Below the pieces are notes generated by a model. It made no database searches. It saw only the letters and a list, made by a program, of their open reading frames with translations, and had not been told where the DNA came from. From a virus (Duplodnaviria; Caudoviricetes), in IMG/VR virus record IMGVR_UViG_3300044729_001120, positions 1 through 55,421 of that record: DNA of 55,421 nucleotides. One strand, written 5' to 3'. This document shows positions 5,032-39,244 of this stretch, one piece after another; position 1 is the first letter of the stretch; every line of letters starts with the position of its first letter. A program made the translations under genes and the position numbers.

Positions 5032-5039
5032 AGGAAGTC

Positions 5040-8032: not shown

Positions 8033-8045
8033 CAGGAGATACCAA

Positions 8046-9843: not shown

Positions 9844-9844
9844 G

Positions 9845-11169: not shown

Positions 11170-11655
11170 ATGTTGAGTTTAATATCAAGTTTGATGGGTT
11201 TTGCTGCTGGCGGCCTGCCGAAGGTACTGGATTTCGTACAAGATCGTGGCGACAAGAAGCACGAACTGGCTTTGATGGCGGCTAACCGCGAGCGTGAGAT
11301 TGCTCTGGCGAAGGAAGGCTTTATTGCCCAAGCCCGTGTCGAGGAGATTAAGACCGATCAGATTGCAATGCAGACACAGGCGCAGGAAAAGCTCGCTATG
11401 TGGAAGCACGACATGAAGATTGGTGAGGGTGCCAGCACGTGGGTGATTAACCTGAGAGCCTCTGTGCGACCCGTCGTCACGTACTTGTTTGTAGGTCTCT
11501 TGATCGTAGTGGACGTTGCCGGCATCTGGTATGCGTACAGCACTGGTGTCGCGTTTTCTGTAGCGATGGAAATGGTTTTCTCTGATGACGAGATGGCAAT
11601 CCTTGCTGCAATAATCAGTTTTTGGTTCGGGTCGCAGGCTTTCAGTAAGAAATGA
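11170..11655 (+). CDS. Putative holin (3TM-holin-like)
   Basis: W...LRASVRPVVTY and IISFWFGS motifs, TM segments, directly upstream of the lysozyme. Confidence 0.6.
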   Translation: MLSLISSLMGFAAGGLPKVLDFVQDRGDKKHELALMAANREREIALAKEGFIAQARVEEIKTDQIAMQTQAQEKLAMWKHDMKIGEGASTWVINLRASVRPVVTYLFVGLLIVVDVAGIWYAYSTGVAFSVAMEMVFSDDEMAILAAIISFWFGSQAFSKK

Positions 11656-12137
11656 GTACATCCGAGGCGGGTATTCAGTTGATCAAATCCTTTGAGGGCT
11701 GCCACAACAGCCCTTATAAGTGCCCCGCGACGTTGTGGACGATTGCCTACGGCCATGTGCTGTACCCTGATCAAGCGCGGTTAAAGAACGACGAGAGAGC
11801 CAACTACCCGCTCAAAACTGAGCACAATAGGACGTTTTCCGGTGATGAGATTGATACGTTGCTTGAGAAAGATTTACAACGCTTTGAGGCAGGGGTACTA
11901 CGATTATGTCCTGCTGCTGCTGATAATCAGTGCCATCTTGACGCGCTGGTCAGCTTTGCGTTCAATGTGGGGTTAGGGAACTTGCAGTCATCTACCCTAA
12001 GAATGAAGTACAATCGTGGCGACTACGATGGCGCAGCAGATGAGTTCCTCAAATGGAACAAAGCTGGCGGCAAGGTCTTGAACGGACTGGTCAGGCGTAG
12101 AGAGGCCGAGAGAGCTTTATTCTTATCCGGAGGCTAG
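11652..12137 (+). CDS. Endolysin, GH24 phage lysozyme
   Basis: IKSFEG...Y.CPA..WTIAYGH, DALVSFAFNVG, W..AGGKVL.GLVRRREAE. Confidence 0.92.
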   Translation: MSTSEAGIQLIKSFEGCHNSPYKCPATLWTIAYGHVLYPDQARLKNDERANYPLKTEHNRTFSGDEIDTLLEKDLQRFEAGVLRLCPAAADNQCHLDALVSFAFNVGLGNLQSSTLRMKYNRGDYDGAADEFLKWNKAGGKVLNGLVRRREAERALFLSGG

Positions 12138-23771: not shown

Positions 23772-24413
23772 ATGAACAAAGCTAACATTCAGATTCGCGG
23801 TAACTGTCAGTGCTGCGGTAACGACCAAGCTGTTGTGCGCGGTTATGCAAGTAAGCACGGCTACACCGTGAACAACGGCTGGTTCAATGGCGTCTGCTCT
23901 GGTCAACACTACGAGCCAGTCCAAGTAAGCCGAGTGCAGGCTGACCGGATTGTCGAGTCGGTTCGTGAATCGGTTGCAGCATTGAGGGTTGAACTCGAGG
24001 CTGTAGCGTCTGGCAAGGTAACGCCAAAGACAATCGTCAAGGGATACGGCAAAAATCGCACTGAGATTAAGTTTGCCGATGCAGCCTTGTACGAGCAAGA
24101 AGGTGCGGTAGAAGATCTAAAGCGTGCCATTGCCCACCGCATCAATGCTGGTGAGGACTTTGCCAAGCACTTGGAAGCGGTAGCTAACAAGTACCACGGC
24201 AAGCCCCTGACTGAAATCAAGCTGGACGAGGTGGGCATAGTTGTTGGCTCAAGCGTCAAAGTTCAAGGCTCTGTAGTAACAGTAACTAAAATTGAATATC
24301 GGGTGGCGCGAGGCGTTGGCCCAAGCATCAACGGACAGCACATCTTGCATGTGTGCTTTGAGCGCAACGGAAAAGAATTTGCATACCCAAAGCGTTTTGC
24401 GAAATTAGTCTAA
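23772..24413 (+). CDS. Early hypothetical protein with Cys/His motif (CQCCG...KHGY...CSG)
   Basis: ATG 23772 behind GGAG; possible Zn-binding. Confidence 0.7.
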   Translation: MNKANIQIRGNCQCCGNDQAVVRGYASKHGYTVNNGWFNGVCSGQHYEPVQVSRVQADRIVESVRESVAALRVELEAVASGKVTPKTIVKGYGKNRTEIKFADAALYEQEGAVEDLKRAIAHRINAGEDFAKHLEAVANKYHGKPLTEIKLDEVGIVVGSSVKVQGSVVTVTKIEYRVARGVGPSINGQHILHVCFERNGKEFAYPKRFAKLV

Positions 24414-24456
24414 CCAACCATCAGCAGCCCCCTACGGGGGGCAGAGGAGCAGCACC

Positions 24457-24687
24457 ATGATCAAGACATCAAAGAAGGCAGCACAGAAGCTTGGCGCGGA
24501 TCTGGCGACAGAGCTGCACGCTCAGACCACCATAGCAGCGCGTGGCGGCGTGCTGGCAGCGCGGTTCGTAATACTGTCCCAGCTAGACTACGAGGCCCAG
24601 ACGGAGTTCTACGCTGGGTTCGACGCACAGCTGGATCTGCTGGAGCCGCTGGCGGCACCGCGTGTAAGCTACGGGTTCAGGATATAA
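24457..24687 (+). CDS. Early hypothetical protein
   Basis: 76 aa, GAGGAG RBS, preceded by the GCCCCC-TACG-GGGGGC hairpin. Confidence 0.65.
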   Translation: MIKTSKKAAQKLGADLATELHAQTTIAARGGVLAARFVILSQLDYEAQTEFYAGFDAQLDLLEPLAAPRVSYGFRI

Positions 24688-24693
24688 TATATT

Positions 24694-24743
24694 CTCGATT
24701 GCATACAAAAAGTGTTGCAATCGAGTATGTACTGAACTATTCT
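24694..24743 (+). promoter_or_regulatory. Early promoter repeat P2 with 10-bp inverted-repeat operator
   Basis: TTGCAA(24715)-17-TATTCT(24738); CTCGATTGCA-12 nt-TGCAATCGAG overlaps the -35. Confidence 0.7.
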
Positions 24744-24784
24744 ACTCATATCGGCAGCGATTGGCGCAGCTAGAGGAGATAAAA

Positions 24785-25159
24785 ATGGCAAAGTTTCAAG
24801 TAGGAGCAGTGAGCGATTTGTTTGATGCCGGTCGTACCAACGATGGTGAGGTTTTTGCGGCAGAAGTTTATTACGTAGTAGTCGAAAATGGTGCAGGTCG
24901 TCGTTGGGCCTCTTATGATCGTTTTTACGGCGCTCGTCGTGTGGTTGATGATGAGGGTTGGGTTGGGTTCGACGATCTTCGTGAAGAGGCATCAGCTGCT
25001 GCCGAAGCACTGGCAGCCGCTACAAATCAGGTTCTGGTGTCAGGCGGCAAATTGTCTCTTGAAGATTGGTATCAGATTGATCCTGCTTACGGCTCTCGCG
25101 CTTATCAAGCAGATGGGATCGAAGAGATCCGCGCTTACGAAGATCGTCAGGCAGCTTAA
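24785..25159 (+). CDS. Early hypothetical acidic protein
   Basis: ATG 24785 behind GAGGAG. Confidence 0.7.
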   Translation: MAKFQVGAVSDLFDAGRTNDGEVFAAEVYYVVVENGAGRRWASYDRFYGARRVVDDEGWVGFDDLREEASAAAEALAAATNQVLVSGGKLSLEDWYQIDPAYGSRAYQADGIEEIRAYEDRQAA

Positions 25160-25170
25160 TAACCAACCTC

Positions 25171-25184
25171 GGCCAAGGACGGCC
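25171..25184 (+). repeat. GGCC-AAGGAC-GGCC hairpin repeat, copy 1
   Basis: Other copies at 25417-25430, 25711-25724 and 27307-27322. Confidence 0.8.
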
Positions 25185-25206
25185 ACCGCTCAAAGGAGCA
25201 CTGATC

Positions 25207-25410
25207 ATGGCAAATTTCGCAGCAGTCAACAAAGCACTCAAGGCCGCCTACCCAGCACTTGATGTAGAAGCAGTTCGCGGCGCAGGGTACGTCTACTTCG
25301 GCGGCGATGACGGGTTCGACAAGATCGACTCGATCTTCGTCCACCCAACCAGCACCAGCACGGCAGACCTGACGCGCATCGTGATCGAAGCGGTCTCAGA
25401 CCTAATCTAA
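25207..25410 (+). CDS. Early hypothetical protein
   Basis: 67 aa, AAGGAG RBS. Confidence 0.7.
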   Translation: MANFAAVNKALKAAYPALDVEAVRGAGYVYFGGDDGFDKIDSIFVHPTSTSTADLTRIVIEAVSDLI

Positions 25411-25416
25411 CCAACC

Positions 25417-25430
25417 GGCCAAGGACGGCT
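25417..25430 (+). repeat. GGCC-AAGGAC-GGCT hairpin repeat, copy 2
   Basis: Follows TAACCAACC, as copy 1 does. Confidence 0.8.
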
Positions 25431-25448
25431 ATAACTAAGGAAATCAAA

Positions 25449-25700
25449 ATGCAAATCAAATACAACACCGCTGTTTTTACTCCTGCTGGCTGGCGCTCCG
25501 AAGTGGTCACAGCGCAAGCCGAAGCGATCAGCCCCAAACGACTGCGGGTTGTTGAAGTCATAGACATTGGCGGCAACGGATCAACTGGGTACGCATCCCG
25601 TACCGGCGCAAAGCGTCAGGCGTACAGCGTAGTGGGTGTGGCAAAGCGCGAGATAGGTGCGATAAAGCTGCTCGGCAAAGTGGAAGTGTTAGCGGTTTAA
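25449..25700 (+). CDS. Early hypothetical protein
   Basis: 83 aa, TAAGGA RBS. Confidence 0.7.
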   Translation: MQIKYNTAVFTPAGWRSEVVTAQAEAISPKRLRVVEVIDIGGNGSTGYASRTGAKRQAYSVVGVAKREIGAIKLLGKVEVLAV

Positions 25701-25710
25701 TAAATCACCC

Positions 25711-25724
25711 GGCCAAGGAAGGCT
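25711..25724 (+). repeat. GGCC-AAGGAA-GGCT hairpin repeat, copy 3
   Basis: Followed by ACCGCTCAAAGGAGCAC, identical to the copy 1 downstream sequence. Confidence 0.8.
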
Positions 25725-25745
25725 ACCGCTCAAAGGAGCACGAAC

Positions 25746-25955
25746 ATGATCAAGCGCATCAACCAAGCCATCGCCAAGATTGACCCGCACTGTGAGCTGG
25801 TCAAGGGTGATGGCTACCACTACTTCTAGTACGACGATCAGGATGCTGGGATCTACGAGACTGAGTCAGTCATGGTGATGTACACCAGCCACCATTCCAA
25901 GGATCGGTGGCTAAGTGAGGCGGCTGACTTCATTAATATATGCATACGCAAATAA
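25746..25955 (+). pseudogene. Paralog of 25207..25410 interrupted by an in-frame TAG at 25827-25829
   Basis: MIKRINQAIAKIDPHCELVKGDGYHYF*YDDQDAGIYETESVMVMYTSHHSKDRWLSEAADFINICIRK*; AAGGAG RBS; similarity to the paralog continues past the stop. Confidence 0.65.
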
Positions 25956-25961
25956 AAAGTA

Positions 25962-25990
25962 TTGCAATCGTATACATAGTGCCTTATTAT
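25962..25990 (+). promoter_or_regulatory. Early promoter repeat P3
   Basis: TTGCAA-17-TATTAT then TCTTACATCGGCAGC. Confidence 0.75.
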
Positions 25991-26034
25991 TCTTACATCG
26001 GCAGCACAAAGCGGCCATCAACTGAGGACAAAAC

Positions 26035-26286
26035 ATGCCTTATACTACCAAGACTTCCAGATCATCGCCGGTGACAAGCCCAAAGGCTTTGAGTCGCATT
26101 GAGTCTGCCGATGGCTCGCGCTGGGCATACAGCCGCGCACGGAAGGTCTGCTCGGCTAACGGCACTTATGTGATCGTTCAATCGTGGGTCTGCAAAGCTC
26201 GCGTTAATGGCAAGGCGGTCACAGTTAACGCTGACGCATATGAGTCAGCAGCCATCGAATTTGTCAACCAAGGAGCAACATCATGA
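26035..26286 (+). CDS. Early hypothetical protein
   Basis: 83 aa, GAGG RBS behind P3. Confidence 0.6.
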   Translation: MPYTTKTSRSSPVTSPKALSRIESADGSRWAYSRARKVCSANGTYVIVQSWVCKARVNGKAVTVNADAYESAAIEFVNQGATS

Positions 26287-26495
26287 ACGCGATTGACCAG
26301 TGGGAAGCCGAAGAAGCCGCAGCGCAGCTGGCGGCTTTAAAAAAGGAGGACGCAGCGTTTGCCGCGCTGCCCGCTGAAGAGCGAACACGAATCAGCCAAG
26401 CGAAGTTCGACCGCTTGGAAGCGGTTGCGGTTGCGGCAGAAGCGACCGATGAGGATGAGGATGAGGATGAGGATGAGGACGAGGACGAGGAATGA
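26283..26495 (+). CDS. Small protein with a poly-Asp/Glu tail
   Basis: 70 aa, AAGGAG RBS; C-terminus (DE)7E. Confidence 0.65.
   Translation: MNAIDQWEAEEAAAQLAALKKEDAAFAALPAEERTRISQAKFDRLEAVAVAAEATDEDEDEDEDEDEDEE
26448..26489 (+). repeat. Hexanucleotide tandem repeat (GATGAG)5(GACGAG)2
   Basis: Read directly from the sequence. Confidence 0.9.
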
Positions 26496-26532
26496 CCAAG
26501 GCCATAATATTCGCGATTGAGTGCTAAAGTAG

Positions 26533-26561
26533 TTGCAATCGTATACATAATGCCTCATTAT
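26533..26561 (+). promoter_or_regulatory. Early promoter repeat P4
   Basis: TTGCAA-17-CATTAT; spacer nearly identical to P3; leader TCTCACATCGGC. Confidence 0.7.
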
Positions 26562-26601
26562 TCTCACATCGGCTGCGGTTGTCGCGGCCTTCGGGGGTAA
26601 C

Positions 26602-27300
26602 ATGAACACAGTCATCCACAAGAGCTTCCAGTTTGGCACAGCTCCTTTTCGTTTTGTTGCTATCTGGTCAGCGCCATCTAAGGCTCTGGCTGAAGCCAAC
26701 CCAGAGGCGTACAACGCGCAGCTGCGCAACAAGCCAGAGTGCTGCCACTTCAGCTGCGACCATTGCGGCACCAGCATCAACAACCACTGCATCATCGTTG
26801 ATGCAACCGGCAAGCGTTTCACTGTCGGCACTGACTGCGTTGAGAAGACCAACCACACTGAAGTGGTCAGCAAAGTAAAGCTGGCGCTCAAGCAGAAAGC
26901 CAAAGCAGTACGTGAAGCCAAGCGTCAGGCAGAACAGCAGGCTCGTCTGGCTGCATACGATGCAGAGCTGCAAGCGCAGCGTGATGCCAACGGTGGCTTG
27001 ACTGACTCTGAGGTCGCCCACAAGAAGGCATACGCAGCACGTAAGGAGCAGTTGGCGCGTACCAATGCCATCGTTGCCCCGGTAGTCAGTGTTCTGGATG
27101 CCGCTGGTGGCGACTTCTGCTTCAGTATCGCGCAGAACTACCGCAACGGCTTGTTACCACAAGGCCGCGCCAAGGACATCGTGATTGAGATCGTTGCCAA
27201 GCAATCTGGTCGCAAGGGTTCAGCAGCTTATGACGCTGCTCTGGCTGGCGCTCAAGAGCTGGTGGAATCAATCGAGACGGCAATTAAACAGAACTATTAA
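26602..27300 (+). CDS. Early protein with Zn-finger-like motif (CDHCG...H...VGTDC) and coiled coil
   Basis: 232 aa behind P4. Confidence 0.7.
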   Translation: MNTVIHKSFQFGTAPFRFVAIWSAPSKALAEANPEAYNAQLRNKPECCHFSCDHCGTSINNHCIIVDATGKRFTVGTDCVEKTNHTEVVSKVKLALKQKAKAVREAKRQAEQQARLAAYDAELQAQRDANGGLTDSEVAHKKAYAARKEQLARTNAIVAPVVSVLDAAGGDFCFSIAQNYRNGLLPQGRAKDIVIEIVAKQSGRKGSAAYDAALAGAQELVESIETAIKQNY

Positions 27301-27306
27301 AAATCA

Positions 27307-27322
27307 CGGCTAAGGATGGCCG
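27307..27322 (+). repeat. CGGCT-AAGGAT-GGCCG hairpin repeat, copy 4
   Basis: Variant that keeps pairing through a U-G wobble. Confidence 0.7.
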
Positions 27323-27339
27323 CATGGCTGCGTCACTGA

Positions 27340-27471
27340 TTGAGCAGGGACTTATTGCTGGATGATCGCCATCTATTGATGGCACTTAGTCCCATCCTTG
27401 ACAAGGCCCCCGGCCCCGTGACTGCGCACCCATTACTTGGTTAATGGTGGGCCGAGGGTTTCGTGCTCAGT
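27340..27471 (-). ncRNA. Candidate structured RNA between convergent transcription units
   Basis: Nested stems TGAGCA/TGCTCA, GGGACT/AGTCCC, GCCATC/GATGGC, CCTCGGCCC/GGGCCGGGG, CCATTA/TAATGG. Confidence 0.4.
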
Positions 27472-27482
27472 TTACCCCCAAG

Positions 27483-28202
27483 TTAAATTGCGTTTTCTTC
27501 GTCTTCCTCTTTAGGTTGAACTTCAAAGAATATAACCTCCACACTTCCATCCGGGAAGTGAACGATCTCGGTCGCCGCCCAGTCTGTCTTTTTTGCTTTT
27601 GTTATGTTGGGTAATAAACCCCGGTGCAATCGGTGCTTCATCCTCCGCATTGCTTTTATTTCGATCTGCCTAACGCGCTCTTGACTAACTCCTAGTATCT
27701 TCCCCACTTTACTTAGCGAGTGTACTTCGGGGTTGTCAGGATCAAAACCAAACCGGAGGCGCAATACTTTCTGTTCTCGGGGGGTCAACTGATCTAATGC
27801 TGCATACAAAAACTCTATTTTTTCCGCTTTTTCCGCTACATCATCCGCTAACAATAGGGTTTCCAGCGGGTCAACGGAGCCTTCCAAGAGATGCGTCGGC
27901 ATTAACTCGTCGCGATTGGCCTCAATGAACACCTTGTTCAAGGGCAGCGATTCCTCTAAATGCTGCGGGGGAAAGATATCTTCGGGGTTGCAGGTAAAAA
28001 ATTCGCACAGTTCTTTAGCGGCGGCATAGACGTCGCCTTTTTTTGTATACGCGGCTTTCTTCAGATTTAACATGCCCCCGATACGGGCGTGGCTTATACC
28101 CGTTGCCCTGCTTAAATCTGCAGCAGTTTCTAGCCCGTGCTGCTGCATCATGGTCAGCAGGTAGTTGTTCTGTACTTTAAGGGTGAGGCGGTAGTCTTTC
28201 AT
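27483..28202 (-). CDS. Transcriptional regulator: N-terminal XRE-like HTH plus C-terminal sigma70 region-4 domain
   Basis: AADLSRATGISHARIG; LDQLTPREQKVLRLRFG...SLSKVG..LGVSQERVRQIEIKAMRRMKH. Confidence 0.8.
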   Translation of the reverse strand: MKDYRLTLKVQNNYLLTMMQQHGLETAADLSRATGISHARIGGMLNLKKAAYTKKGDVYAAAKELCEFFTCNPEDIFPPQHLEESLPLNKVFIEANRDELMPTHLLEGSVDPLETLLLADDVAEKAEKIEFLYAALDQLTPREQKVLRLRFGFDPDNPEVHSLSKVGKILGVSQERVRQIEIKAMRRMKHRLHRGLLPNITKAKKTDWAATEIVHFPDGSVEVIFFEVQPKEEDEENAI

Positions 28203-28408
28203 GTCTTCCCCTCATTAAGCTTGCGCATGCGGGACTCGTTGATCCAGCTGCGCATGGGCACGTCGCTGAACTTTGAGTACCCGGTGGGCACGTCCGTTAT
28301 CTTGCCGCCCTTTGCCAGATAAGCTTTGATGTCCTGCGCGATCTTCGCGCCGGGGTCCTCTGGCAAGGGCTTGAGCTTGTCGTCCAAGTATGTTCGGTAT
28401 CGATTCAT
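28199..28408 (-). CDS. Small protein with a SutA-like RNAP-binding motif
   Basis: IAQDIKAYLAKGGKITDVPTG resembles the SutA (F/Y)L..GG.(I/V)..(V/I) motif. Confidence 0.55.
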   Translation of the reverse strand: MNRYRTYLDDKLKPLPEDPGAKIAQDIKAYLAKGGKITDVPTGYSKFSDVPMRSWINESRMRKLNEGKT

Positions 28409-28764
28409 TGTTCTTCCCTCGCCGGCCTGCTGCACCACGTTAGCTGTTTGATGTGCGGCCAGTAATCGGCGTGGGTGTTTGTGACTTCCACGGGCTGCAC
28501 ACCTATGTAATCAGAATCTTCGATCCTTATGACTTGTCGTTGTGTTTCGCAGTCGAGCGATGAGTCGATGACGGTATCGCCGAAACGCCAGTTGCGCCAG
28601 TCGTTCATGTCCTGCGCGGGTTCTGCTTCATCATCCAAAAACGGACTCAACTTGCCAAGCGTATACCCCATGTCTGCTAAGACCTCCCGCAGCTCTGCCT
28701 CAAGGTCAGGGATACATTGCGCTGTTTCGTGTGCGCGTTTTAGTGTGTTCAACAAGTCACTCAC
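28405..28764 (-). CDS. Hypothetical protein
   Basis: 119 aa, GTG start with GGAGGTGAGGA upstream. Confidence 0.65.
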   Translation of the reverse strand: MSDLLNTLKRAHETAQCIPDLEAELREVLADMGYTLGKLSPFLDDEAEPAQDMNDWRNWRFGDTVIDSSLDCETQRQVIRIEDSDYIGVQPVEVTNTHADYWPHIKQLTWCSRPAREEQ

Positions 28765-28880
28765 TCCTCACCTCCCTTGCTCGTTTTTTCTTCCACGCTA
28801 ATCCAGATTGGCTGGATGAAAAACAGGTAAGAGTATGCGACATAAACACCCGCGACAAACCCTATAAGTTGGTCAATCAT
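28761..28880 (-). CDS. Small single-TM protein (39 aa, absent from the ORF track)
   Basis: MIDQLIGFVAGVYVAYSYLFFIQPIWISVEEKTSKGGEE*; GGAGGTG RBS; coupled to both neighbours. Confidence 0.55.
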   Translation of the reverse strand: MIDQLIGFVAGVYVAYSYLFFIQPIWISVEEKTSKGGEE

Positions 28881-29073
28881 GCTCACCTCCTTTGCCTGCT
28901 CGCGGCAGCCAATTCGTAAAAATAAAATCAAATATGCCCGGAGACATTGTTAGCACGTGGTCAATGTGAGGGTCAGCGCATTCACATGCTTGAGACTTTG
29001 CAAACGTACCCGCCCTTGATGTGTACAAAACAAAGCATTTTTTACATCTATCCGTTGTTGTTGTCACCATCAC
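28873..29073 (-). CDS. Small Cys-containing hypothetical protein
   Basis: 66 aa, CKKC...CEC; GGAGGTG RBS. Confidence 0.55.
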   Translation of the reverse strand: MMVTTTTDRCKKCFVLYTSRAGTFAKSQACECADPHIDHVLTMSPGIFDFIFTNWLPRAGKGGEHD

Positions 29074-29264
29074 TCACCTCCCTTGCCTGCTGATATCAGC
29101 TCAGACTTTACAATCTCAAGGACGCCCACTGCTAACGCCAGCGGTATAGTGTCGGCGTGTTTATAAATGGCAGAATTTATTTCATCAGCTAGTTCGGCAG
29201 CTATATACGCATGTGATTTGCTGGCTATCGGCATAAACTTTATCGGGTCTGTTTTTCCCATCAC
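29070..29264 (-). CDS. Hypothetical protein
   Basis: 64 aa, GGAGGTG RBS. Confidence 0.6.
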   Translation of the reverse strand: MMGKTDPIKFMPIASKSHAYIAAELADEINSAIYKHADTIPLALAVGVLEIVKSELISAGKGGE

Positions 29265-29551
29265 TCACCTCCCTCAGTTACCCACTCGCCCCTGAGTACA
29301 CAGACTCGCATAGGCATCATTGTTTTTGTAGCTGCGTTGTATGTAAGTCGGGACTCGTACTCCACGCACGGGTTTTCTTGTTCGTACTCAGCCAATCCAT
29401 TTATAACCAACGCCAACATCACAACGGCAACACCTCCGTATACCCATGCGCGTAAGTCACCCGACCCGTTTTCTGCAAACCAAATCACGCTTTTACCCGC
29501 CGCAATAAACCACAAAATTACAAAAAGTATTCCTCCTATGATTTCGATCAT
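29261..29551 (-). CDS. Two-TM membrane protein
   Basis: MIEIIGGILFVILWFIAAG...; AGGAGG RBS. Confidence 0.6.
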   Translation of the reverse strand: MIEIIGGILFVILWFIAAGKSVIWFAENGSGDLRAWVYGGVAVVMLALVINGLAEYEQENPCVEYESRLTYNAATKTMMPMRVCVLRGEWVTEGGE

Positions 29552-29609
29552 CTCGCCCTCCTGCACTCAATGCGGTGCAGCAAATAAGTTATGTAATGTT
29601 GGTTGTGTT

Positions 29610-29828
29610 TCATCGCCCGTGCCCCTCTGGCTGCTCTACCCTGTCTCTTTCGTACCACATCTTGGCTGGTTCGTAGATAGAGAGAAAGTGCATTACATCG
29701 CTGTCAGTTAAGCAGGCAGTGGCTGAATAGAACGCCTGCTGATTCAGGCCGCACCTACGTAGCTGATCGGCAATTTGATGCTCGTCAATCTCTAACCCGC
29801 GCTCATCCCTTATAATGCGCTTGCTCAT
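29610..29828 (-). CDS. Hypothetical protein
   Basis: MSKRIIRDERG...EQPEGHGR*; start overlaps the upstream stop (ATGA). Confidence 0.55.
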   Translation of the reverse strand: MSKRIIRDERGLEIDEHQIADQLRRCGLNQQAFYSATACLTDSDVMHFLSIYEPAKMWYERDRVEQPEGHGR

Positions 29829-29983
29829 CGCCCATGCCCCTGAGGCTTCGGCTCTTCGCCGTATGATGCTTCCATCGCGTGGCGTACCTCGGCTATCTCC
29901 CGCTGCTGCATGATCCAAACAACTGCGACGATGCACAGCACCAGCACAAGGATCGAACCCATAATCTTGTCGTCATTTCTCAT
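29825..29983 (-). CDS. Small single-TM protein (52 aa, absent from the ORF track)
   Basis: MRNDDKIMGSILVLVLCIVAVVWIMQQREIAEVRHAMEASYGEEPKPQGHGR*; GGAG RBS. Confidence 0.55.
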   Translation of the reverse strand: MRNDDKIMGSILVLVLCIVAVVWIMQQREIAEVRHAMEASYGEEPKPQGHGR

Positions 29984-30119
29984 GATTGTTCTCCATCTTG
30001 AGCAGGGCTTGTAGGAACCTGATTGCGTTTTCTATATCAGCTCTGGGGTTGGCGCTTTGCCCTGCGTACTTCGTTACAGCGACATTTCCTGCACGGTATG
30101 AGCACTCTATTTCGCTCAT
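29973..30119 (-). CDS. Hypothetical protein (48 aa, absent from the ORF track)
   Basis: MSEIECSYRAGNVAVTKYAGQSANPRADIENAIRFLQALLKMENNHEK*; TGATG coupling. Confidence 0.45.
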   Translation of the reverse strand: MSEIECSYRAGNVAVTKYAGQSANPRADIENAIRFLQALLKMENNHEK

Positions 30120-30286
30120 CACTTCCCCCTCGCAGCCACTGCCGCTTCTGCCAATTTGCGATCAAATTTTTCTCTGTTTGCACGGTACCAGTAGCTCACT
30201 GTCCCGGCGCTGACGCCGTGATGCCGCGCCAGAGCCTTTGCCCGGATGCCCACGCGCTTGCAGTGGGCGGATGCGCTGTCAGTCAT
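30119..30286 (-). CDS. Small HTH protein (55 aa, absent from the ORF track)
   Basis: MTDSASAHCKRVGIRAKALARHHGVSAGTVSYWYRANREKFDRKLAEAAVAARGK*; LA...GVS..TV..W HTH pattern. Confidence 0.6.
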   Translation of the reverse strand: MTDSASAHCKRVGIRAKALARHHGVSAGTVSYWYRANREKFDRKLAEAAVAARGK

Positions 30287-30467
30287 CTGGATGCTCCACG
30301 CGCGCGATGCGATCAGGGCGGAACCAGATGGAGGACTTCATGAGTACCGTGTGCAGTCTGTTGCGCTTATCGATCCACCAGAACGAGTCGTCCGGGGCAT
30401 TGACGAAATCAGGGTTGCTTATCTCCCCTTCATCGTCGTATTGGCATTCGATCCACTTAGTAGTCAT
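30279..30467 (-). CDS. Hypothetical protein
   Basis: MTTKWIECQYDD...; GGAGGAG RBS. Confidence 0.55.
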   Translation of the reverse strand: MTTKWIECQYDDEGEISNPDFVNAPDDSFWWIDKRNRLHTVLMKSSIWFRPDRIARVEHPDD

Positions 30468-30723
30468 TCTGCATCTCCTCCAGCTCCGCGCTCCACAGCT
30501 CGGTGGCCTCGACGTCGGCTTCGCGCACCAGCTCATCGCTGCCCTGCCACTTCGCGTAGGGGACTTCTGTGCCGTCCTCGTCGATCATCACGCTAACGAT
30601 CCGACCGTGTAGGTACGTGAACAGGGTGTCGCCGACAACGACATCGCCCGAATACTCATGCTCCTCCGGATCTTCTTCTGGGAGCATGGCGTCGTAACGC
30701 GCTTGCGCCCTAGTGAAGCTCAT
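30457..30723 (-). CDS. Acidic hypothetical protein
   Basis: MSFTRAQARYDAMLPEED... Confidence 0.6.
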   Translation of the reverse strand: MSFTRAQARYDAMLPEEDPEEHEYSGDVVVGDTLFTYLHGRIVSVMIDEDGTEVPYAKWQGSDELVREADVEATELWSAELEEMQNDY

Positions 30724-30958
30724 CTTTATTTTCCCCGGATTCAAGCTCTGCCTGCATCTGCGCCTTAATCGCATCAGTCACCATCTCTGACGGCACACCT
30801 ATATGCGCAGCTAATGACGCAATTATTCTTGTCATCGCGCTCATAACGACAGCCAATTTCTCCGGCTCCTTCTGGCCGTCGTGGTTGTCCATATACTCGT
30901 CCACAGTACGAACTATTTTTAGGATCACCATCCGTATTTGCTTATCGCTGATAGTCAT
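30710..30958 (-). CDS. Hypothetical protein
   Basis: 82 aa, AGGAG RBS. Confidence 0.6.
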   Translation of the reverse strand: MTISDKQIRMVILKIVRTVDEYMDNHDGQKEPEKLAVVMSAMTRIIASLAAHIGVPSEMVTDAIKAQMQAELESGENKDELH

Positions 30959-31139
30959 TGCTCTTCTCCTGCAAGCATAAATGCGCCCGGTTGTTGTAGT
31001 CAGGCCAGCCCAGTTCGCCGGCAGAGGATGTCCACAGCGCGACCATCTCGCAGTGATGCTTGAGCACTGCTGCGTCTAGGTCTTGATCAGTTGACGGCTG
31101 GCAGGCAGCCAACGCAAACAAAATTAGAAGGACTCTCAT
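30942..31139 (-). CDS. Putative lipoprotein
   Basis: MRVLLILFALAAC lipobox; GGAGG RBS. Confidence 0.55.
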   Translation of the reverse strand: MRVLLILFALAACQPSTDQDLDAAVLKHHCEMVALWTSSAGELGWPDYNNRAHLCLQEKSNDYQR

Positions 31140-31351
31140 ACCTGCCTCCAAATTCGGATGCCGTCACCTTCACGGCGCGCGATAAACTTTTTGTTGTGGC
31201 GGTCGCCACAAGACTTGGCTGCACGGTAGGCTCGGCCATTGAGCGCCTCGCCCGGATAGGCCACAGACTCTCCGACCTCCATGTCGGCAAATGGATACTT
31301 GGTTGCCCGCTCCCCGCGAGGGATGGGGATGTCTTTAACGATCTCGGTCAT
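31136..31351 (-). CDS. Small putative DNA-binding protein
   Basis: KDIPIP...KYPF.DM.VG.S...GIRIWR, a widespread phage family; AGGAGG RBS. Confidence 0.65.
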   Translation of the reverse strand: MTEIVKDIPIPRGERATKYPFADMEVGESVAYPGEALNGRAYRAAKSCGDRHNKKFIARREGDGIRIWRQV

Positions 31352-31422
31352 GCTGTACCTCCTTTGACTATTAGAGGAATTATTATATTTATTATATGCA
31401 CAAAAGAAAACATTTATTTACT

Positions 31423-31746
31423 TTAATCTGACAGATTTGTGACGCGATCCGAATATATGCCGCCCTCAGCATACGTCTCTGCGATTGCAGCTGCGCGCTC
31501 TGGATCTGACAGCGCCAGCACTTTGCAGTACTCTCGCACGACCAGAGCGCCGGCCAGTCGCATGAGCGGCGTCTCGTAGTAGTCCGCCAGCTCGCGCAAC
31601 ATGTAGTAGTGCTCTGGCCGCATAATCACAGCTGTCGCATTACGCTTTACGAAGTTGACCCCGAGCCGAGGACCGGGCTTCCTGCTCAGTGCTCGTTTCT
31701 TTCTTGGCTTTTTTACGGGGGCGTCAATATCAGTTGTCGTGGTCAT
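31423..31746 (-). CDS. Hypothetical basic protein, possibly DNA-binding
   Basis: 107 aa, ATGA overlap with terS. Confidence 0.55.
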   Translation of the reverse strand: MTTTTDIDAPVKKPRKKRALSRKPGPRLGVNFVKRNATAVIMRPEHYYMLRELADYYETPLMRLAGALVVREYCKVLALSDPERAAAIAETYAEGGIYSDRVTNLSD

Positions 31747-32399
31747 TTCTGCTGCTCCGGATCAGGTTCGTACTCTTCGTCGTACTCTTCGTCGTACTCC
31801 TCATCAACAATATCCTCAGCGATCTCTTCCACAATGGGCGTGACATCGATTACCTGCGCGGGGTCGCCGTACATCGCCTTGATCTCCTCCAGCTTCTTTC
31901 GCACTTCATCTGCGCTCATGGTGTCGATGGTCCCGTGGCGGATCTCTTTGCGCTCGACGTAGATCGTTCCCAACGCCTGACCACGGCGGTACTCTGCCTG
32001 TACTGCCGCACTGTAATTGCCGGCCTCCAGCGCCTTGTCGCGGATGATCTGTAGATCCCTCATGTGCCGCTCTATCGTCGTGCCATACCTCTCAGCAACG
32101 TCCTGCCGGTATCGCTGAATGGCAGCGACTATGTGGGGATTGAGTTTTGCACTTGTCAGGTTATAGCCCATAGCCGCCGCAGACCCTTTCGAGTAGCCGG
32201 CGGCCAAGGCTGCTTGAGTCAGAGTCACCTGCCCGTCGCCATCGACCAGCTCCTGAATAAACTTCCACTGCTGCGGTGTTACCGGGCGCGTCTGGTCCTC
32301 AAGCGGCGCTACTGGTGCTTTGAGGCGCTCATTGAGCTTGTTCCGGCGCACCGGTGACTGGTTAAACAGTGTTGCCATGCGACCTTTTTGGACGGTCAT
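31743..32399 (-). CDS. terS: Terminase small subunit
   Basis: TPQQWKFIQE...TQAALAAGYS..SA...YNL...NPHIVAAI HTH, RD.ALE.G.YSAAVQAE; acidic tail. Confidence 0.75.
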   Translation of the reverse strand: MTVQKGRMATLFNQSPVRRNKLNERLKAPVAPLEDQTRPVTPQQWKFIQELVDGDGQVTLTQAALAAGYSKGSAAAMGYNLTSAKLNPHIVAAIQRYRQDVAERYGTTIERHMRDLQIIRDKALEAGNYSAAVQAEYRRGQALGTIYVERKEIRHGTIDTMSADEVRKKLEEIKAMYGDPAQVIDVTPIVEEIAEDIVDEEYDEEYDEEYEPDPEQQK

Positions 32400-32418
32400 A
32401 TACGATCCTCAGCTTAGT

Positions 32419-32796
32419 TTAAAACGGAATATCTGCGTCTAAGTCGTACATTGCCGGGGCAGGGTTAGTGCGACGTGTTGATGGTGCTGAGGCGCTATCC
32501 TCCCGCTTTCCACCGATCAGGCTGATCGATGACACACGACAGGTTAGGTAGGTTTTACCCTCATGCTCACGTGTGCTGAGTTCGCCACTAACCGCTACCT
32601 GCGCGCCCTTAGTCAGGTACTGAGGCAACTTACTTTCTGCCTGCTTGCCCCACAGCGCGCAGTCAAGCCACAGCGTTTGTTCTTTATCGCCATAACCGGA
32701 CTTAACTGCCACGGTAAAATTGCACACTGCAGTACCGCCTTGATTGCCGCTCCTGCAATCCTTGCCCAAGTTGCCTGTAAATGTGAATACGTTCAT
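32419..32796 (-). CDS. ssb: Single-stranded DNA-binding protein
   Basis: GNLGKD, NFTVAV, YLTKG.QV.VSG.L, C-terminal DADIPF. Confidence 0.92.
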   Translation of the reverse strand: MNVFTFTGNLGKDCRSGNQGGTAVCNFTVAVKSGYGDKEQTLWLDCALWGKQAESKLPQYLTKGAQVAVSGELSTREHEGKTYLTCRVSSISLIGGKREDSASAPSTRRTNPAPAMYDLDADIPF

Positions 32797-32798
32797 TT

Positions 32799-33008
32799 TT
32801 ATTCTCCTTCAATCAAATCAATTAGGGTAATCACTGCTGATGCAGCCTCAAAAAACAGTTCATCTGCTTTGTTCATCGCATACTCTGGGTCACCTTCACC
32901 AAGCTTGCCAAGGTTTTCCAAAATGCTGCGATCAATAGACCCCTGCATAATTATTGCCGCCATATCTTCGAGTTCGTCACATATTGCTCTAAGCCTGTTG
33001 ATCATCAA
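32799..33008 (-). CDS. Hypothetical acidic protein
   Basis: 69 aa, coupled in operon. Confidence 0.6.
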   Translation of the reverse strand: MMINRLRAICDELEDMAAIIMQGSIDRSILENLGKLGEGDPEYAMNKADELFFEAASAVITLIDLIEGE

Positions 33009-33604
33009 AACACCTCGCCATCTTCTTCATCATGGGTCACTTCAACAGGTGCAGCAGCCTCGAGCTGTGCGAGTTGTTCCGGCGTGAGTTGTCCGGTTTT
33101 CTGGCACTGCGCAACTATCTGCTGCAGAGTCATCTTGCCCTCTGCCATTGCCTTTACCATTGCAGGCAGGGAACTCTCAAACTTGTCAGCCGGGTACGCT
33201 TTAGATTGCACCTTAAGCAGCGGGACGTGGTACGACTCGCGCTTAGTCTTACTGATTGTTAACGCGCAGCTCAGGCCAGCTGCTGGAATGTCTGACAAAG
33301 CTTTAACGCGGATGCCACCGACTTCTTTTCCAGCATAAATTACGGACGGCTCAAACATCAGCTGAGCTGATTTCCCAATCCATGCGTCTGAGTCTCGACC
33401 CCAAGCTGCAGCTAAAATGCGGCGCATACCTTTGGACGGCTTCCAAGGGCGGTTGTTGTCACCGTCAAAAAAAATCCAGACGGGCTGTTCTGCTGATTCC
33501 TTTAATTGAACATCCCGCACACGTATCACTGGCTCTGCCCCGAAGATATCGGTTGCGTTAAGCTGATCGCTTTTTGCTTCAAGTGTTGCGCTTATATCTG
33601 CCAT
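33005..33604 (-). CDS. Conserved phage protein beside the RecE-like nuclease; candidate single-strand annealing/recombination factor
   Basis: MADISATLEAKSDQLNA.D...PWKPSKGMRRIL...GGIRV; sits between exonuclease and ssb; function inferred from position. Confidence 0.55.
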   Translation of the reverse strand: MADISATLEAKSDQLNATDIFGAEPVIRVRDVQLKESAEQPVWIFFDGDNNRPWKPSKGMRRILAAAWGRDSDAWIGKSAQLMFEPSVIYAGKEVGGIRVKALSDIPAAGLSCALTISKTKRESYHVPLLKVQSKAYPADKFESSLPAMVKAMAEGKMTLQQIVAQCQKTGQLTPEQLAQLEAAAPVEVTHDEEDGEVF

Positions 33605-33605
33605 T

Positions 33606-34454
33606 TTAGTATATGCCCTCATCATTGTTATCAAGTGCCGCCAGCACAAACTCTGGCAGCGTTACTACGCCTGTCCCGCTATATGATTCCCAGCTGTTGT
33701 TTTTGAGTGACTTCGCATACGACTCCAACGCCTTCCGGTACAACTTGTGCCCGTACTGCAGCGCCAGCGGGTCAATGTCGTACAGCACGTTAGCGCAAGG
33801 CGGCTGCTCCTCAACTGCCAACAGCTTGAACGATTGCAACGGCTTGCCAAAAACCAGTTCATACACGTGCGAATACATGGCCGCTTGCACATGGTAATTA
33901 TAGTTGTGCAGGCTGCGACTGAAGGCCAGCTCACGGCAGTCCTGAGTCTTTTTAAGGTCAATGCAAACGCCTTCATCAGTGAGCCAGTCAAAGCGGCACC
34001 GCATGTAAACACCTGTCTCAGGATCAATCACAAACGCTGATAGCTCGGCATGGCCTGCTTGTGTCAGCAGACTGTTCGCCGGGCTGTTGGACCGGATAGA
34101 CTCGGCCATCACACTGACCGCTGCCCCTTCAGTTTCCGTAAGTGCTTTGTCGCCGCCATAAATCTTCGCGGCATCCTTGTAGGCGCTAACCCGGCGATCA
34201 TCACATCCAGTGACAACGACGTACTCAGCTGCGTAACGATCAGGCTCGAGCAGGGCAGCGTGGAAGGCTGTGCCGATCTCCATAGCCCGTGAGCTGCTCG
34301 GTTTCGGCGCATGGTAATAGTGCGCAGGACTGCGCGCGACCAGCGACAGGCCGCTGTTACTGATGCTTTCGTGTAGATGGTAATCAGCGTTTGGCATGCC
34401 GGAGACCAATGCTGGGTAGGTGCCATCCCAATCTAAATACGGTGTAATTTTCAT
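33606..34454 (-). CDS. PD-(D/E)XK exonuclease VIII (RecE / DUF3799)-like
   Basis: YH...ISNSGL..SPAHY, IGTAFHAALLEP, RCRFDWL...IDLKKT, YHVQAAMY. Confidence 0.85.
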   Translation of the reverse strand: MKITPYLDWDGTYPALVSGMPNADYHLHESISNSGLSLVARSPAHYYHAPKPSSSRAMEIGTAFHAALLEPDRYAAEYVVVTGCDDRRVSAYKDAAKIYGGDKALTETEGAAVSVMAESIRSNSPANSLLTQAGHAELSAFVIDPETGVYMRCRFDWLTDEGVCIDLKKTQDCRELAFSRSLHNYNYHVQAAMYSHVYELVFGKPLQSFKLLAVEEQPPCANVLYDIDPLALQYGHKLYRKALESYAKSLKNNSWESYSGTGVVTLPEFVLAALDNNDEGIY

Positions 34455-34474
34455 AATCCCTCCAATTAACGGTA

Positions 34475-34509
34475 TTGAAAACATTAACGCAGGCGTGTAA
34501 TCTTGTCAA
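34475..34509. promoter_or_regulatory. Overlapping divergent sigma70 promoters
   Basis: Rightward TTGAAA-17-TAATCT (34475-34503); leftward TTGACA-17-TAATGT (34509-34481). Confidence 0.6.
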
Positions 34510-39065: not shown

Positions 39066-39244
39066 CAGGCAAGAGACCGCGCCAATACGCGCAGGCTTAT
39101 CTCAAGGCTACGGGCAGGGACGCCCAGAGAGCCGCCCTCAAGGGTTGCCCGCCGCAGTGGCAGGATCTGGTGCGGCTGCACATCAAGATTGCGAGACAGA
39201 GAGAGCAAAAATCCTGCCCTTTCATCGCGACGCCTAAAACATAG
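39062..39244 (+). CDS. Hypothetical protein
   Basis: GTG overlapping the primase stop; PRQYAQAYL...LKGCPPQWQDLVRLH. Confidence 0.55.
   Translation: MTGKRPRQYAQAYLKATGRDAQRAALKGCPPQWQDLVRLHIKIARQREQKSCPFIATPKT

What the first reader, a model, noticed from the sequence alone, without database searches (positions are those of the whole stretch)
25171..27322. Repeated ANGGAN-hexaloop hairpins in early leaders look like CsrA/RsmA binding sites
Seen: four intergenic hairpins GGCC-AAGGAC-GGCC (25171), GGCC-AAGGAC-GGCT (25417), GGCC-AAGGAA-GGCT (25711) and CGGCT-AAGGAT-GGCCG (27307). Stem changes retain G-U pairing on the + strand, which implies an RNA-level function, and only the last loop base varies. 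Three copies lie a short distance upstream of an AAGGA Shine-Dalgarno. Known: CsrA/RsmA/RsmE bind ANGGAN hexaloops on short stems, typically one hairpin plus a GGA overlapping the SD. Inference: early genes sense host Csr/Rsm status, or the abundant early transcripts act as a CsrB/RsmZ-like sponge. This also points to a gammaproteobacterial host.
Basis: partly seen in the sequence, partly recalled or inferred. Interest (0 to 1): 0.7.

Follow-up and report, generated by a model that had tools for sequence, protein, structure and literature searches.

The report
CsrA-type RNA hairpins between phage genes
Four small RNA hairpins between short genes of an uncultured lake phage belong to a large, conserved family whose loop matches the docking site of the bacterial translation regulator CsrA/RsmA, so the phage probably ties these genes to that host regulator, though binding is untested and the host is unknown.

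Summary
All four hairpins sit where stated, on the sense strand, 6-11 nt after a stop codon.

They belong to a family found in many uncultured phage contigs. The core is C-GGCC-ANGGAY-GGCC-A with CA-rich, G-poor flanks. It lies about 8 nt after a stop and about 20 nt before the next start.

The stem is an RNA stem: 124 of 124 cells pair, and 3 of 4 pairs show compensatory changes. Single changes all give G-U on the sense strand.

GGA is kept in 37 of 42 loops that were not selected by loop sequence. The second loop base is free and the last is never G. This equals the published RsmA/RsmF consensus CANGGAYG and the CsrA SELEX hairpin (four pairs or fewer, hexaloop). The next GGA, in the Shine-Dalgarno, lies 15-19 nt downstream, within the published CsrA bridging range.

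Best reading (about 0.5): host CsrA/RsmA operator hairpins, possibly also titrating CsrA.

Against it:
- Five GGA-less copies keep their stem.
- Some copies have no downstream gene.
- The host is unknown.
- Nothing was bound or expressed.

The hairpins also mark mosaic gene-cassette junctions. Earlier notes of this scan report similar hairpins on other phage DNA. I found no paper describing them in three searches.

The parts
25171..25184 (+). Hairpin 1: GGCC-AAGGAC-GGCC, flanked by C (25170) and A (25185). It lies 11 nt after the first TAA of ORF 24761-25159, and 8 nt after the second TAA.
   Evidence: 41.6 bits; -6.1 kcal/mol
25188..25199 (+). Second small hairpin GCUC-AAAG-GAGC holding the Shine-Dalgarno AAAGGAG (25192-25198) of ORF 25207-25410. 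Its GGA (25195-25197) is 18 nt after the loop GGA of hairpin 1.
25417..25430 (+). Hairpin 2: GGCC-AAGGAC-GGCT (G-U closing the base), 6 nt after the stop of ORF 25207-25410. The SD AAGGAA is at 25437-25442 and the start at 25449.
   Evidence: (38.3 bits)
25711..25724 (+). Hairpin 3: GGCC-AAGGAA-GGCT, 10 nt after the stop of ORF 25449-25700. The SD AAAGGAG is at 25732-25738, inside a GCUC-AAAG-GAGC hairpin at 25728-25739. The start is at 25746.
   Evidence: (37.2 bits)
27307..27322 (+). Hairpin 4: CGGCT-AAGGAT-GGCCG, 6 nt after the stop of ORF 26602-27300. No gene follows, only a 13-codon frame. In relatives L005 and L006 the same junction is followed by an SD and a gene.
   Evidence: (25.9 bits)
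25207..25410 (+). 67-aa acidic ORF (pI 4.5, PHROG 9154, function unknown). It is the gene family most often found next to these hairpins: 21 of 156 flanking ORFs.
25449..25700 (+). 83-aa basic ORF (pI 10.1). Homologs of 57-60% identity lie in four other loci that hold hairpins (L020, L021, L036, L058). In L036 (the unrelated phage G005) and in L058 a hairpin stands directly before the homolog.
25746..25951 (+). Paralog-like small ORF after hairpin 3. It is interrupted by TAG at 25827-25829, where the L007 homolog has CAG.
25962..25990 (+). Sigma-70-like promoter TTGCAA-17-TATTAT. A near copy lies at 26533-26561 (TTGCAA-17-CATTAT).
26602..27300 (+). 232-aa ORF whose stop precedes hairpin 4. Eleven related IMG/VR loci were found with it.

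Best explanation
The four elements are sense-strand RNA hairpins in polycistronic messages for small accessory genes. Each has a 4-bp stem capped by a C.A mismatch, and a hexaloop A-N-G-G-A-Y closed by C-G. This is the shape and sequence that CsrA/RsmA-family proteins bind with high affinity.

The most likely mechanism is as follows. A dimer of the host's CsrA/RsmA binds the hairpin loop with one face. With the other face it binds the GGA of the Shine-Dalgarno 15-19 nt downstream. This represses or times translation of the downstream small gene according to the host's Csr/Rsm state. With 3-7 such sites on one message, the phage RNA would also draw CsrA away from host targets.

Shown here: the RNA-level structure, selection on the loop, the fixed geometry, and the match to the printed consensus.
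For: (1) RNA structure. Among 42 model hits (31 distinct) in the window and in loci found by protein homology, 124 of 124 cells pair. Three of 4 pairs carry changes on both sides (CGCC/GGCG, GCCC/GGGC, GGCT/AGCC). No shuffle out of 500 reaches this. All 9 single-side changes among 42 unbiased copies give G-U on the sense strand.

(2) Loop. Of 42 unique copies not selected by loop, 37 keep GGA. Position 1 is always A. Position 2 is A, C, G or U. The last position is C or U, once A, and never G. The closing pair stays C-G even on changed stems.

(3) This equals CANGGAYG, the RsmA/RsmF site 'that presents the GGA in the loop of a stem-loop' (bioRxiv 10.1101/315341, passages). In CsrA SELEX, 51 of 55 ligands had GGA in a loop, most had 4 bp or fewer, and 44 had hexaloops (PMC7652899, passages).

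(4) Geometry. The distance from loop GGA to the next GGA has a median of 17 nt, and is 15-19 nt in 62 of 75 copies. The printed bridging range is 10-63 nt, with an optimum near 18 nt.

(5) Stem length and flanks. The stem is kept at exactly 4 bp by C at -1 and A at +1 (28 of 30 seeds each). The flanks are G-poor.

(6) Selection. The hairpin stands before the homolog of ORF 25449 in an otherwise unrelated 34-kb phage, where the protein is only 60% identical.

(7) Not tied to one gene. The 71 downstream genes fall into 51 clusters. No phage csrA was found in 5 of 5 records. Together these point to a conserved host reader.

(8) One host link. One canonical copy (40.7 bits) lies in an integrated element 1.8 kb from an integrase, on a chromosomal contig with pheT, infC and thrS. 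The contig belongs to a Candidatus Contendobacter MAG that has csrA at 89 bits.
Against: - Five of 42 unbiased copies lack GGA (ACAAAC x3, AAAGAC x2) yet keep a perfect stem. One of the ACAAAC copies even carries a compensatory stem change. The stem is therefore selected for something besides presenting GGA.
- Of the 18 of 92 copies for which my script found no downstream gene, I read about 6 as truly lacking one. Copy 4 of the window is among them. Some are followed by a promoter-like stretch or by a terminator.
- The stop-to-hairpin distance (5-13 nt in 83 of 87) is as tight as the hairpin-to-start distance. The element could belong to the upstream gene's end.
- The host is unknown, and no tool gave a taxon.
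- In the window the hairpins occur only in one cluster of accessory genes. The small genes on the - strand at 27483-34484 have none.
- No binding, expression or processing data exist.
- The loop census leans on a model trained on GGA loops.
Confidence: 0.5

Rival explanations
1. A CsrA-independent junction hairpin. In this reading a small, insulated RNA stem-loop between cistrons acts through its structure. It could work as a processing or stability mark, as an insulator that keeps the next ribosome site unstructured, or as a device for coupling termination to re-initiation. Its conserved ~40-nt context would double as the homology patch at which small-gene cassettes are exchanged.
For: The stem is kept in the 5 of 42 copies that lost GGA, one of them with a compensatory change. 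The hairpin is tightly placed 5-13 nt after stop codons in 83 of 87 copies. Copies exist without a downstream gene. The flanks are CA-rich, G-poor and unstructured. Homology between the window and L020 begins at the hairpin. Contigs of lake metagenomes end or switch to other leaders at the junctions: loose ends at 25207 and 27300, and contig ends at 25169, 25707 and 25722. The close relative G001 lacks the 24761-26500 block at this place.
Against: A purely structural role does not explain several features. The loop keeps A-N-GGA-Y and a C-G closing pair across three different stems. The last loop base is never G. The stem is capped at 4 bp. No U-tract follows, so it is not a terminator. A -6 kcal/mol stem is weak as an exonuclease block.
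Confidence: 0.25
2. An operator for another loop-reading protein. This could be a phage-encoded RNA-binding protein that travels with the cassettes, such as the basic 83-aa ORF 25449, or an unrelated host protein.
For: ORF 25449 is basic (pI 10.1). Homologs of 57-60% identity lie in four other hairpin-bearing loci, one of them part of the otherwise unrelated phage G005. Its model is a small beta-rich domain (pLDDT 75). The Cluster K mycobacteriophage start-associated sequences are a precedent for repeats whose reader is still unknown (PMC3203893).
Against: No family or fold match supports RNA binding. Pfam and PHROGs give 0 families. The best Foldseek E-value is 0.85 and the best VIA Z is 3.8. 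Most hairpin-bearing loci show no homolog of this ORF within their 3 kb. The family spans contigs of GC 0.38-0.68 with unrelated flanking genes, which fits a universal host factor better.
Confidence: 0.15
3. A DNA-level site. In this reading the element is an inverted repeat GGCC-N6-GGCC bound by a dimeric DNA-binding protein or used by a recombinase or nuclease. Copy 4 might instead serve as a terminator for the convergent - strand operon.
For: GGCC is palindromic. Copy 4 read on the - strand, followed by ATTTTTAATA, was flagged as terminator-like. An HTH plus sigma-70-region-4 gene lies next door at 27483-28202. The junctions are recombination breakpoints.
Against: The asymmetric loop reads ANGGAY on the sense strand in all 87 copies that have an upstream same-strand ORF. 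Single stem changes are G-U on the sense strand only, which break the DNA palindrome. Double changes keep pairing rather than half-site identity. Only copy 4 has an A-run upstream.
Confidence: 0.04

Closest known systems
High-affinity CsrA/RsmA/RsmF binding hairpins on mRNA leaders (consensus CANGGAYG; SELEX RUACARGGAUGU)
   Same: It shares the apical hexaloop A-N-GGA-Y closed by C-G, a stem of 4 bp, and a second GGA in the Shine-Dalgarno 15-19 nt downstream.
   Different: Here it is a repeated, near-identical module with conserved CA-rich flanks, placed after stop codons between many unrelated small phage genes. Sometimes no gene follows. Twelve percent of copies lack GGA. Binding is untested and the host is unknown.
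CsrB/CsrC and RsmX/Y/Z/V sponge RNAs
   Same: Several GGA-loop hairpins sit on one transcript: 3 in 550 nt in the window and 7 in 2.3 kb in L020. By comparison, RsmV has four CANGGAYG sites.
   Different: The transcript is protein-coding and polycistronic, not a small non-coding RNA. No Rfam model matches, even at E up to 10.
TwoAYGGAY RNA motif (Rfam RF01731; listed in Weinberg 2010, PMC2864571)
   Same: It has hairpin loops reading AYGGAY. Loops that fit AYGGAY (ACGGAC, ACGGAT, ATGGAC) make up 17 of the 42 unbiased copies of this family.
   Different: Here the hairpins are single rather than a two-hairpin unit. AAGGAC is equally common. The family's model gives no match at E up to 10. Only a table line of the paper was seen.
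PeSL promoter-terminator cassettes of T4-like phages (PMC4122927 abstract; PMC2839356 search listing only)
   Same: Both are short conserved intergenic motifs that flank small variable genes and serve as points of exchange between otherwise unrelated sequences.
   Different: PeSLs combine an early promoter with a terminator stem-loop. These hairpins have no promoter and no U-tract, and they carry a conserved loop sequence.
Start-associated sequences (SAS, GGGATAGGAGCCC) of Cluster K mycobacteriophages (PMC3203893)
   Same: Both are phage-specific, one-orientation repeats before many unrelated non-structural genes, with symmetric outer bases around a GGA-containing centre.
   Different: The SAS lies 3-7 bp from the start codon and is itself the ribosome-binding site. 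Here the hairpin lies 18-22 nt upstream of the start and is separate from the SD.

Membership tests
CsrA/RsmA binding hairpin (operator) | GGA presented in the loop of a short stem-loop | tested here: met
   4 of 4 window copies and 37 of 42 unbiased family copies meet it.
CsrA/RsmA binding hairpin (operator) | Extended consensus CANGGAYG, a hexaloop closed by C-G, and a stem of about 4 bp or fewer | tested here: met
   Three of 4 window copies fit fully. Copy 3 has A in place of Y. The closing C-G is kept on variant stems.
CsrA/RsmA binding hairpin (operator) | Second GGA at or near the Shine-Dalgarno, within 10-63 nt | tested here: met
   The distances for copies 1-3 are 18, 16 and 18 nt. 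The family median is 17 nt. Copy 4 has no downstream gene.
CsrA/RsmA binding hairpin (operator) | Physical binding by a CsrA-family protein, and a CsrA-dependent effect on expression | not testable with these tools
   This needs EMSA or reporter assays.
CsrA/RsmA binding hairpin (operator) | A CsrA-family protein present in the infected cell | tested here: inconclusive
   No csrA was found in the window or in 4 related virus records (0 of 5). The host is unknown. The one bacterial genome with a canonical copy has csrA. CsrA was found in 259 of 300 sampled genomes of that genome's class (the tally includes three genomes flagged unpublished: G047, G149, G304).
CsrB/Rsm-type sponge sRNA | A non-coding small RNA made of many GGA hairpins that matches a curated model | tested here: not met
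   The hairpins lie between coding genes. No Rfam match was found at gathering score or at E up to 10.
TwoAYGGAY motif (RF01731) | Match to the family's covariance model (two hairpins with AYGGAY loops) | tested here: not met
   No match at E up to 10 in window 24600-27500 or in 5 related loci.
PeSL cassettes | A composite of an early promoter and a terminator stem-loop | tested here: not met
   No promoter hexamers lie next to the hairpins and no U-tract follows. The role as an exchange point is shared.
Intrinsic terminator | A GC-rich stem followed by a U-run on the transcribed strand | tested here: not met
   The + strand 3' flank is A/C-rich. Only copy 4, read on the - strand, was flagged.
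Start-associated sequences (Cluster K) | A 13-bp repeat 3-7 bp upstream of the start codon that contains the SD | tested here: not met
   The hairpin ends a median of 20 nt before the start, and the SD is separate.

The most novel reading that the evidence does not exclude
The hairpins are a portable 'CsrA handle' that travels with small accessory-gene cassettes among unrelated lake phages. On infection, the burst of multi-hairpin phage mRNA would act as a protein-coding sponge. It would strip CsrA/RsmA from host messages, reprogramming carbon storage, motility and defence expression. At the same time CsrA would delay translation of the phage's own small genes until it has been titrated. This would be a self-timing circuit built only from cis elements.
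Probability: 0.15. Interest if true: 0.85.

Novelty: new variant of a known kind. Interest (0 to 1): 0.6.

Why it matters
CsrA/RsmA is a master post-transcriptional switch in many bacteria. Phages are known to carry csrA genes (PMC7366521). I found no report of phages lacking csrA that mark many of their own genes with consensus CsrA hairpins.

If the hairpins do bind CsrA, they would show three things:
- a cheap way, using only cis elements, for viruses to read or drain a host global regulator;
- a reason why one short motif is conserved across phages of very different base composition;
- a sequence tag for finding host-takeover gene cassettes in metagenomes.

The element is also a clean, 16-nt, directly testable RNA.

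Tried and rejected
- **Rfam.** At gathering score the whole window gave no match. At E up to 10, the region and 5 related loci gave only chance snoRNA and miRNA rows.
- **Megablast of 24000-28000 against cultured phages.** No match.
- **Three short blastn queries of hairpin plus flanks against 50,697 phage records**. These gave only singletons: P. aeruginosa phage HKPH_J3 (17.6 bits with my model, flanks unlike) and phiA020. These may be chance and are not used as support.
- **Nearest named relative, DSL-LC04.** No family member in its first 45 kb.
- **Genome contigs pattern scan.** It gave 17 stretches. I read 15 as high-GC or coding chance matches. L146 lies in a coding frame. Only L155 is canonical.
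- **Host taxonomy.** The genome search gave no kinship labels for genomes reached through loci. SutA-RBD was found in 4 of 300 class genomes, and 3 of those 4 have CsrA, against a background of 259 of 300. This is not informative.
- **Sequencing runs.** No RNA holder was listed. There were 20 lake-water DNA holders. The laid contigs listed no variant inside the hairpins among the 40 rows shown, but 83 rows were not shown.
- **Structure of ORF 25449.** The model has pLDDT 75. No Foldseek hit reached E of 0.001 or better, the best VIA Z was 3.8, and the protein atlas gave no usable hit. This says nothing either way about RNA binding.
- **Shine-Dalgarno mimic or standby site.** Rejected as the main reading, because the second loop base is free and the last is never G.
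- **boxB/nut.** Rejected by copy number and placement (recalled knowledge of lambda nut sites; not tested).
- **Window 39112 (GGGC-AGGGAC-GCCC) and 11307.** Not family members by the model.
- **Supplementary files.** None were opened.
Full report
**What is there.** The window is a 55.4-kb virus record rated 96% complete. The pattern GGCYAAGGANGGCY occurs four times exactly, all on the + strand. With one mismatch allowed, shuffles average 0.32 matches. The backwards control gives none. Each hairpin follows the stop codon of a + strand ORF by 6-11 nt.

Copies 1-3 are followed by a Shine-Dalgarno sequence and a start codon at 25207, 25449 and 25746. Copy 4 follows ORF 26602-27300 and has no gene after it. 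The hairpin alone folds at -6.1 kcal/mol. In leaders 1 and 3 a second small hairpin holds the Shine-Dalgarno. Sigma-70-like promoters lie inside the cluster. That these genes are 'early' is not shown.

**A large family.** Loci found through two neighbouring proteins, and therefore with no bias toward any loop sequence, carry the same hairpin between small genes. There are up to seven copies in 2.3 kb in L020. By a loose rule, 61 of its 133 occurrences have a stop just upstream and an SD plus start just downstream. These occur in contigs of GC 0.38-0.68. The other 72 are mostly in coding sequence of high-GC contigs and look like chance.

I built a covariance model from 30 copies. It separates the two classes. 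Canonical copies with flanks score about 25-49 bits, and bare 14-mers score about 18 bits. In the window only the four copies score. The next hit reaches 10.5 bits.

**It is an RNA stem.** Among the 42 model hits (31 distinct) in the window and the protein-found loci, 124 of 124 cells pair. Three of the four pairs show changes on both sides. No shuffle out of 500 reaches the observed values. The variant stems are CGCC/GGCG, GCCC/GGGC and GGCT/AGCC.

All nine single-side changes among 42 unbiased copies give G-U on the sense strand. They would give A-C on the other strand. The asymmetric loop is in the sense orientation in all 87 of 92 copies that have an upstream same-strand ORF. The larger, pattern-ascertained set adds little variation.

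**The loop is under selection.** Among 42 unique copies not chosen by loop sequence, the loops are:

| Loop | Copies |
|---|---|
| ACGGAC | 13 |
| AAGGAC | 12 |
| AAGGAT | 6 |
| ACAAAC | 3 |
| AAAGAC | 2 |
| ACGGAT | 2 |
| ATGGAC | 2 |
| AAGGAA | 1 |
| AGGGAC | 1 |

So 37 of 42 keep GGA. Position 1 is always A, position 2 is free, and the last base is never G. The closing pair stays C-G on every variant stem.

The bases next to the stem are C and A in 28 of 30 seeds each. They cannot pair, so the stem stays at four pairs. Both flanks are A/C-rich and nearly free of G.

A hairpin also precedes the homolog of ORF 25449 in a 34-kb phage. That phage shares with the window only homologs of ORFs 25207 and 25449, the genes at 11170-12137 (the second a lysozyme by Pfam), a weak helicase match and one other weak match. 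There the protein is 60% identical. The hairpin is therefore better conserved than the gene.

One caveat applies. The model was trained on GGA loops, so copies with very different loops may be under-counted.

**Geometry and context.**
- The stop-to-hairpin gap has a median of 8 nt, and is 5-13 nt in 83 of 87 copies.
- The distance from hairpin end to start codon has a median of 20 nt, and is 18-22 nt in 56 of 74.
- The distance from loop GGA to the next GGA has a median of 17 nt, and is 15-19 nt in 62 of 75.

The 71 downstream genes fall into 51 clusters, with a median length of 74 aa. The commonest neighbour is the acidic 67-aa family of ORF 25207.

The hairpins also mark mosaic junctions:
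- Homology between the window and L020 begins at the hairpin.
- The close relative G001 lacks the 24761-26500 block at this place.
- In four lake metagenomes, contigs end or switch to other hairpin leaders at 25169, 25207, 25707, 25722 and 27300.

**Comparison with CsrA/RsmA sites.** The RsmA/RsmF site is printed as CANGGAYG, with GGA invariant and presented in a stem-loop (bioRxiv 10.1101/315341, passages). In CsrA SELEX (consensus RUACARGGAUGU), 51 of 55 ligands had GGA in a loop. Most had four or fewer pairs, and 44 had six-base loops. A CsrA dimer bridges two sites 10-63 nt apart, best near 18 nt (PMC7652899, passages). The phage hairpin meets each of these points. A Shine-Dalgarno mimic would favour G at the last loop position, and that is never seen.

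**Host.** The host is unknown, and only weak hints exist:
- The nearest named phage, DSL-LC04 (terminase 76% identical), was computationally assigned to Pseudomonas (PMC10611076, section 3.7). It lacks the hairpins in its first 45 kb.
- The window encodes a SutA RNAP-binding-domain protein.
- The DNA occurs in lake-water metagenomes.
- One canonical copy lies in an integrated element beside pheT, infC and thrS in a Candidatus Contendobacter MAG that has csrA.
- CsrA was found in 259 of 300 sampled genomes of that genome's class. This tally includes three genomes flagged unpublished.

**What argues against the CsrA reading.**
- Five GGA-less copies keep perfect stems. The three ACAAAC copies sit at the same junction in three contigs, and one has a compensatory change. 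The stem therefore has value beyond showing GGA.
- My script found no downstream gene for 18 of 92 copies. I read about six of these as real. The rest are locus ends, weak SDs or the TAG-broken ORF.
- The small genes on the - strand of the window have no hairpins.

I therefore hold the CsrA reading at about 0.5. A CsrA-independent junction role stands at about 0.25, another reader protein at about 0.15, and a DNA-level role at about 0.04.

**Known families and novelty.** No Rfam family matches. The element is not a PeSL, because it has no promoter or terminator. It is not a start-associated sequence either, because it is separate from the SD. It shares with both the habit of flanking variable small genes.

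Three literature searches found phage-borne csrA genes and CsrA control of prophages (passages of PMC7366521). They found no description of consensus CsrA hairpins repeated between genes of phages that lack csrA.

Earlier unchecked notes of this scan describe similar loops on other phage DNA. I did not test those notes, and I do not count them as evidence.

Noticed in passing
window 25746-25951: The small ORF after hairpin 3 has an in-frame TAG at 25827-25829. Its homolog in L007 has CAG (Gln) there and is otherwise nearly identical. This could be a nonsense allele, a pseudogene or a sequencing variant.
   Followed up: partly
window 25955-25999 and 26527-26571: Two near-identical ~45-nt direct repeats each carry a sigma-70-like promoter (TTGCAA-17-TATTAT and TTGCAA-17-CATTAT). 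The second is followed by a 7-bp hairpin at the start of its leader. Repeated promoters inside a variable gene cluster recall PeSL-type exchange points.
   Followed up: partly
window 28199-28438 (-) and 27483-28202 (-): A 79-aa ORF matches the SutA RNA-polymerase-binding domain (E 4e-8). Its neighbour combines a Cro/C1 HTH with sigma-70 region 4. Together they may be a phage pair that retargets host RNA polymerase.
   Followed up: partly
window 25449-25700: A basic 83-aa ORF (pI 10.1) is conserved at 57-60% identity in four other hairpin-bearing loci, one of them part of the unrelated phage G005. Its model is a small beta-rich domain with a disordered GNG-rich loop, and it has no family or fold match.
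   Followed up: partly
window 39112-39125: A hairpin GGGC-AGGGAC-GCCC with a CANGGAYG-type loop lies in the gap after the primase gene. It lacks the family's flanks and is not scored by the model.
   Followed up: partly
window 3835-10285: This cluster holds two RCC1-repeat proteins, a sulfotransferase, two glycosyltransferases and an APS-kinase-like ATPase next to the tail genes. It may serve glycan or sulfate modification of the virion or the host surface.
   Followed up: no
window 41767-47901: A 2044-aa ORF lies between the terminase and portal genes, with only a C-terminal GNAT acetyltransferase match. The relative G001 has a longer version that is 69% identical.
   Followed up: no
window 26452-26490: A GAGGAT/GAGGAC codon repeat encodes a poly-(Asp-Glu) tail on the acidic 70-aa ORF 26283-26495. 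Metagenome contigs break at it.
   Followed up: no
L149 (Micromonospora sp. contig), about 1500-1570: Three tandem copies of GGCCAGGGACGGCC, spaced about 21-22 nt apart, lie in an actinomycete chromosome. This is the same hairpin sequence in a quite different setting.
   Followed up: no
L167 14308-14321 (phage phiA020) and L166 22157-22170 (P. aeruginosa phage HKPH_J3): Single exact or near-exact copies of the hairpin lie between a stop codon and the next SD in two cultured phages of gammaproteobacteria. In phiA020 the site is between the tail-fibre and holin genes. In HKPH_J3 it is after the gene that follows the major head gene. These phages could serve as experimental stand-ins, but the copies may be chance.
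   Followed up: partly
L129 497-520: Two overlapping hairpin units (GGCCAACCAC then GGCCACGGACGGCC) look like a partial tandem duplication of the element.
   Followed up: no
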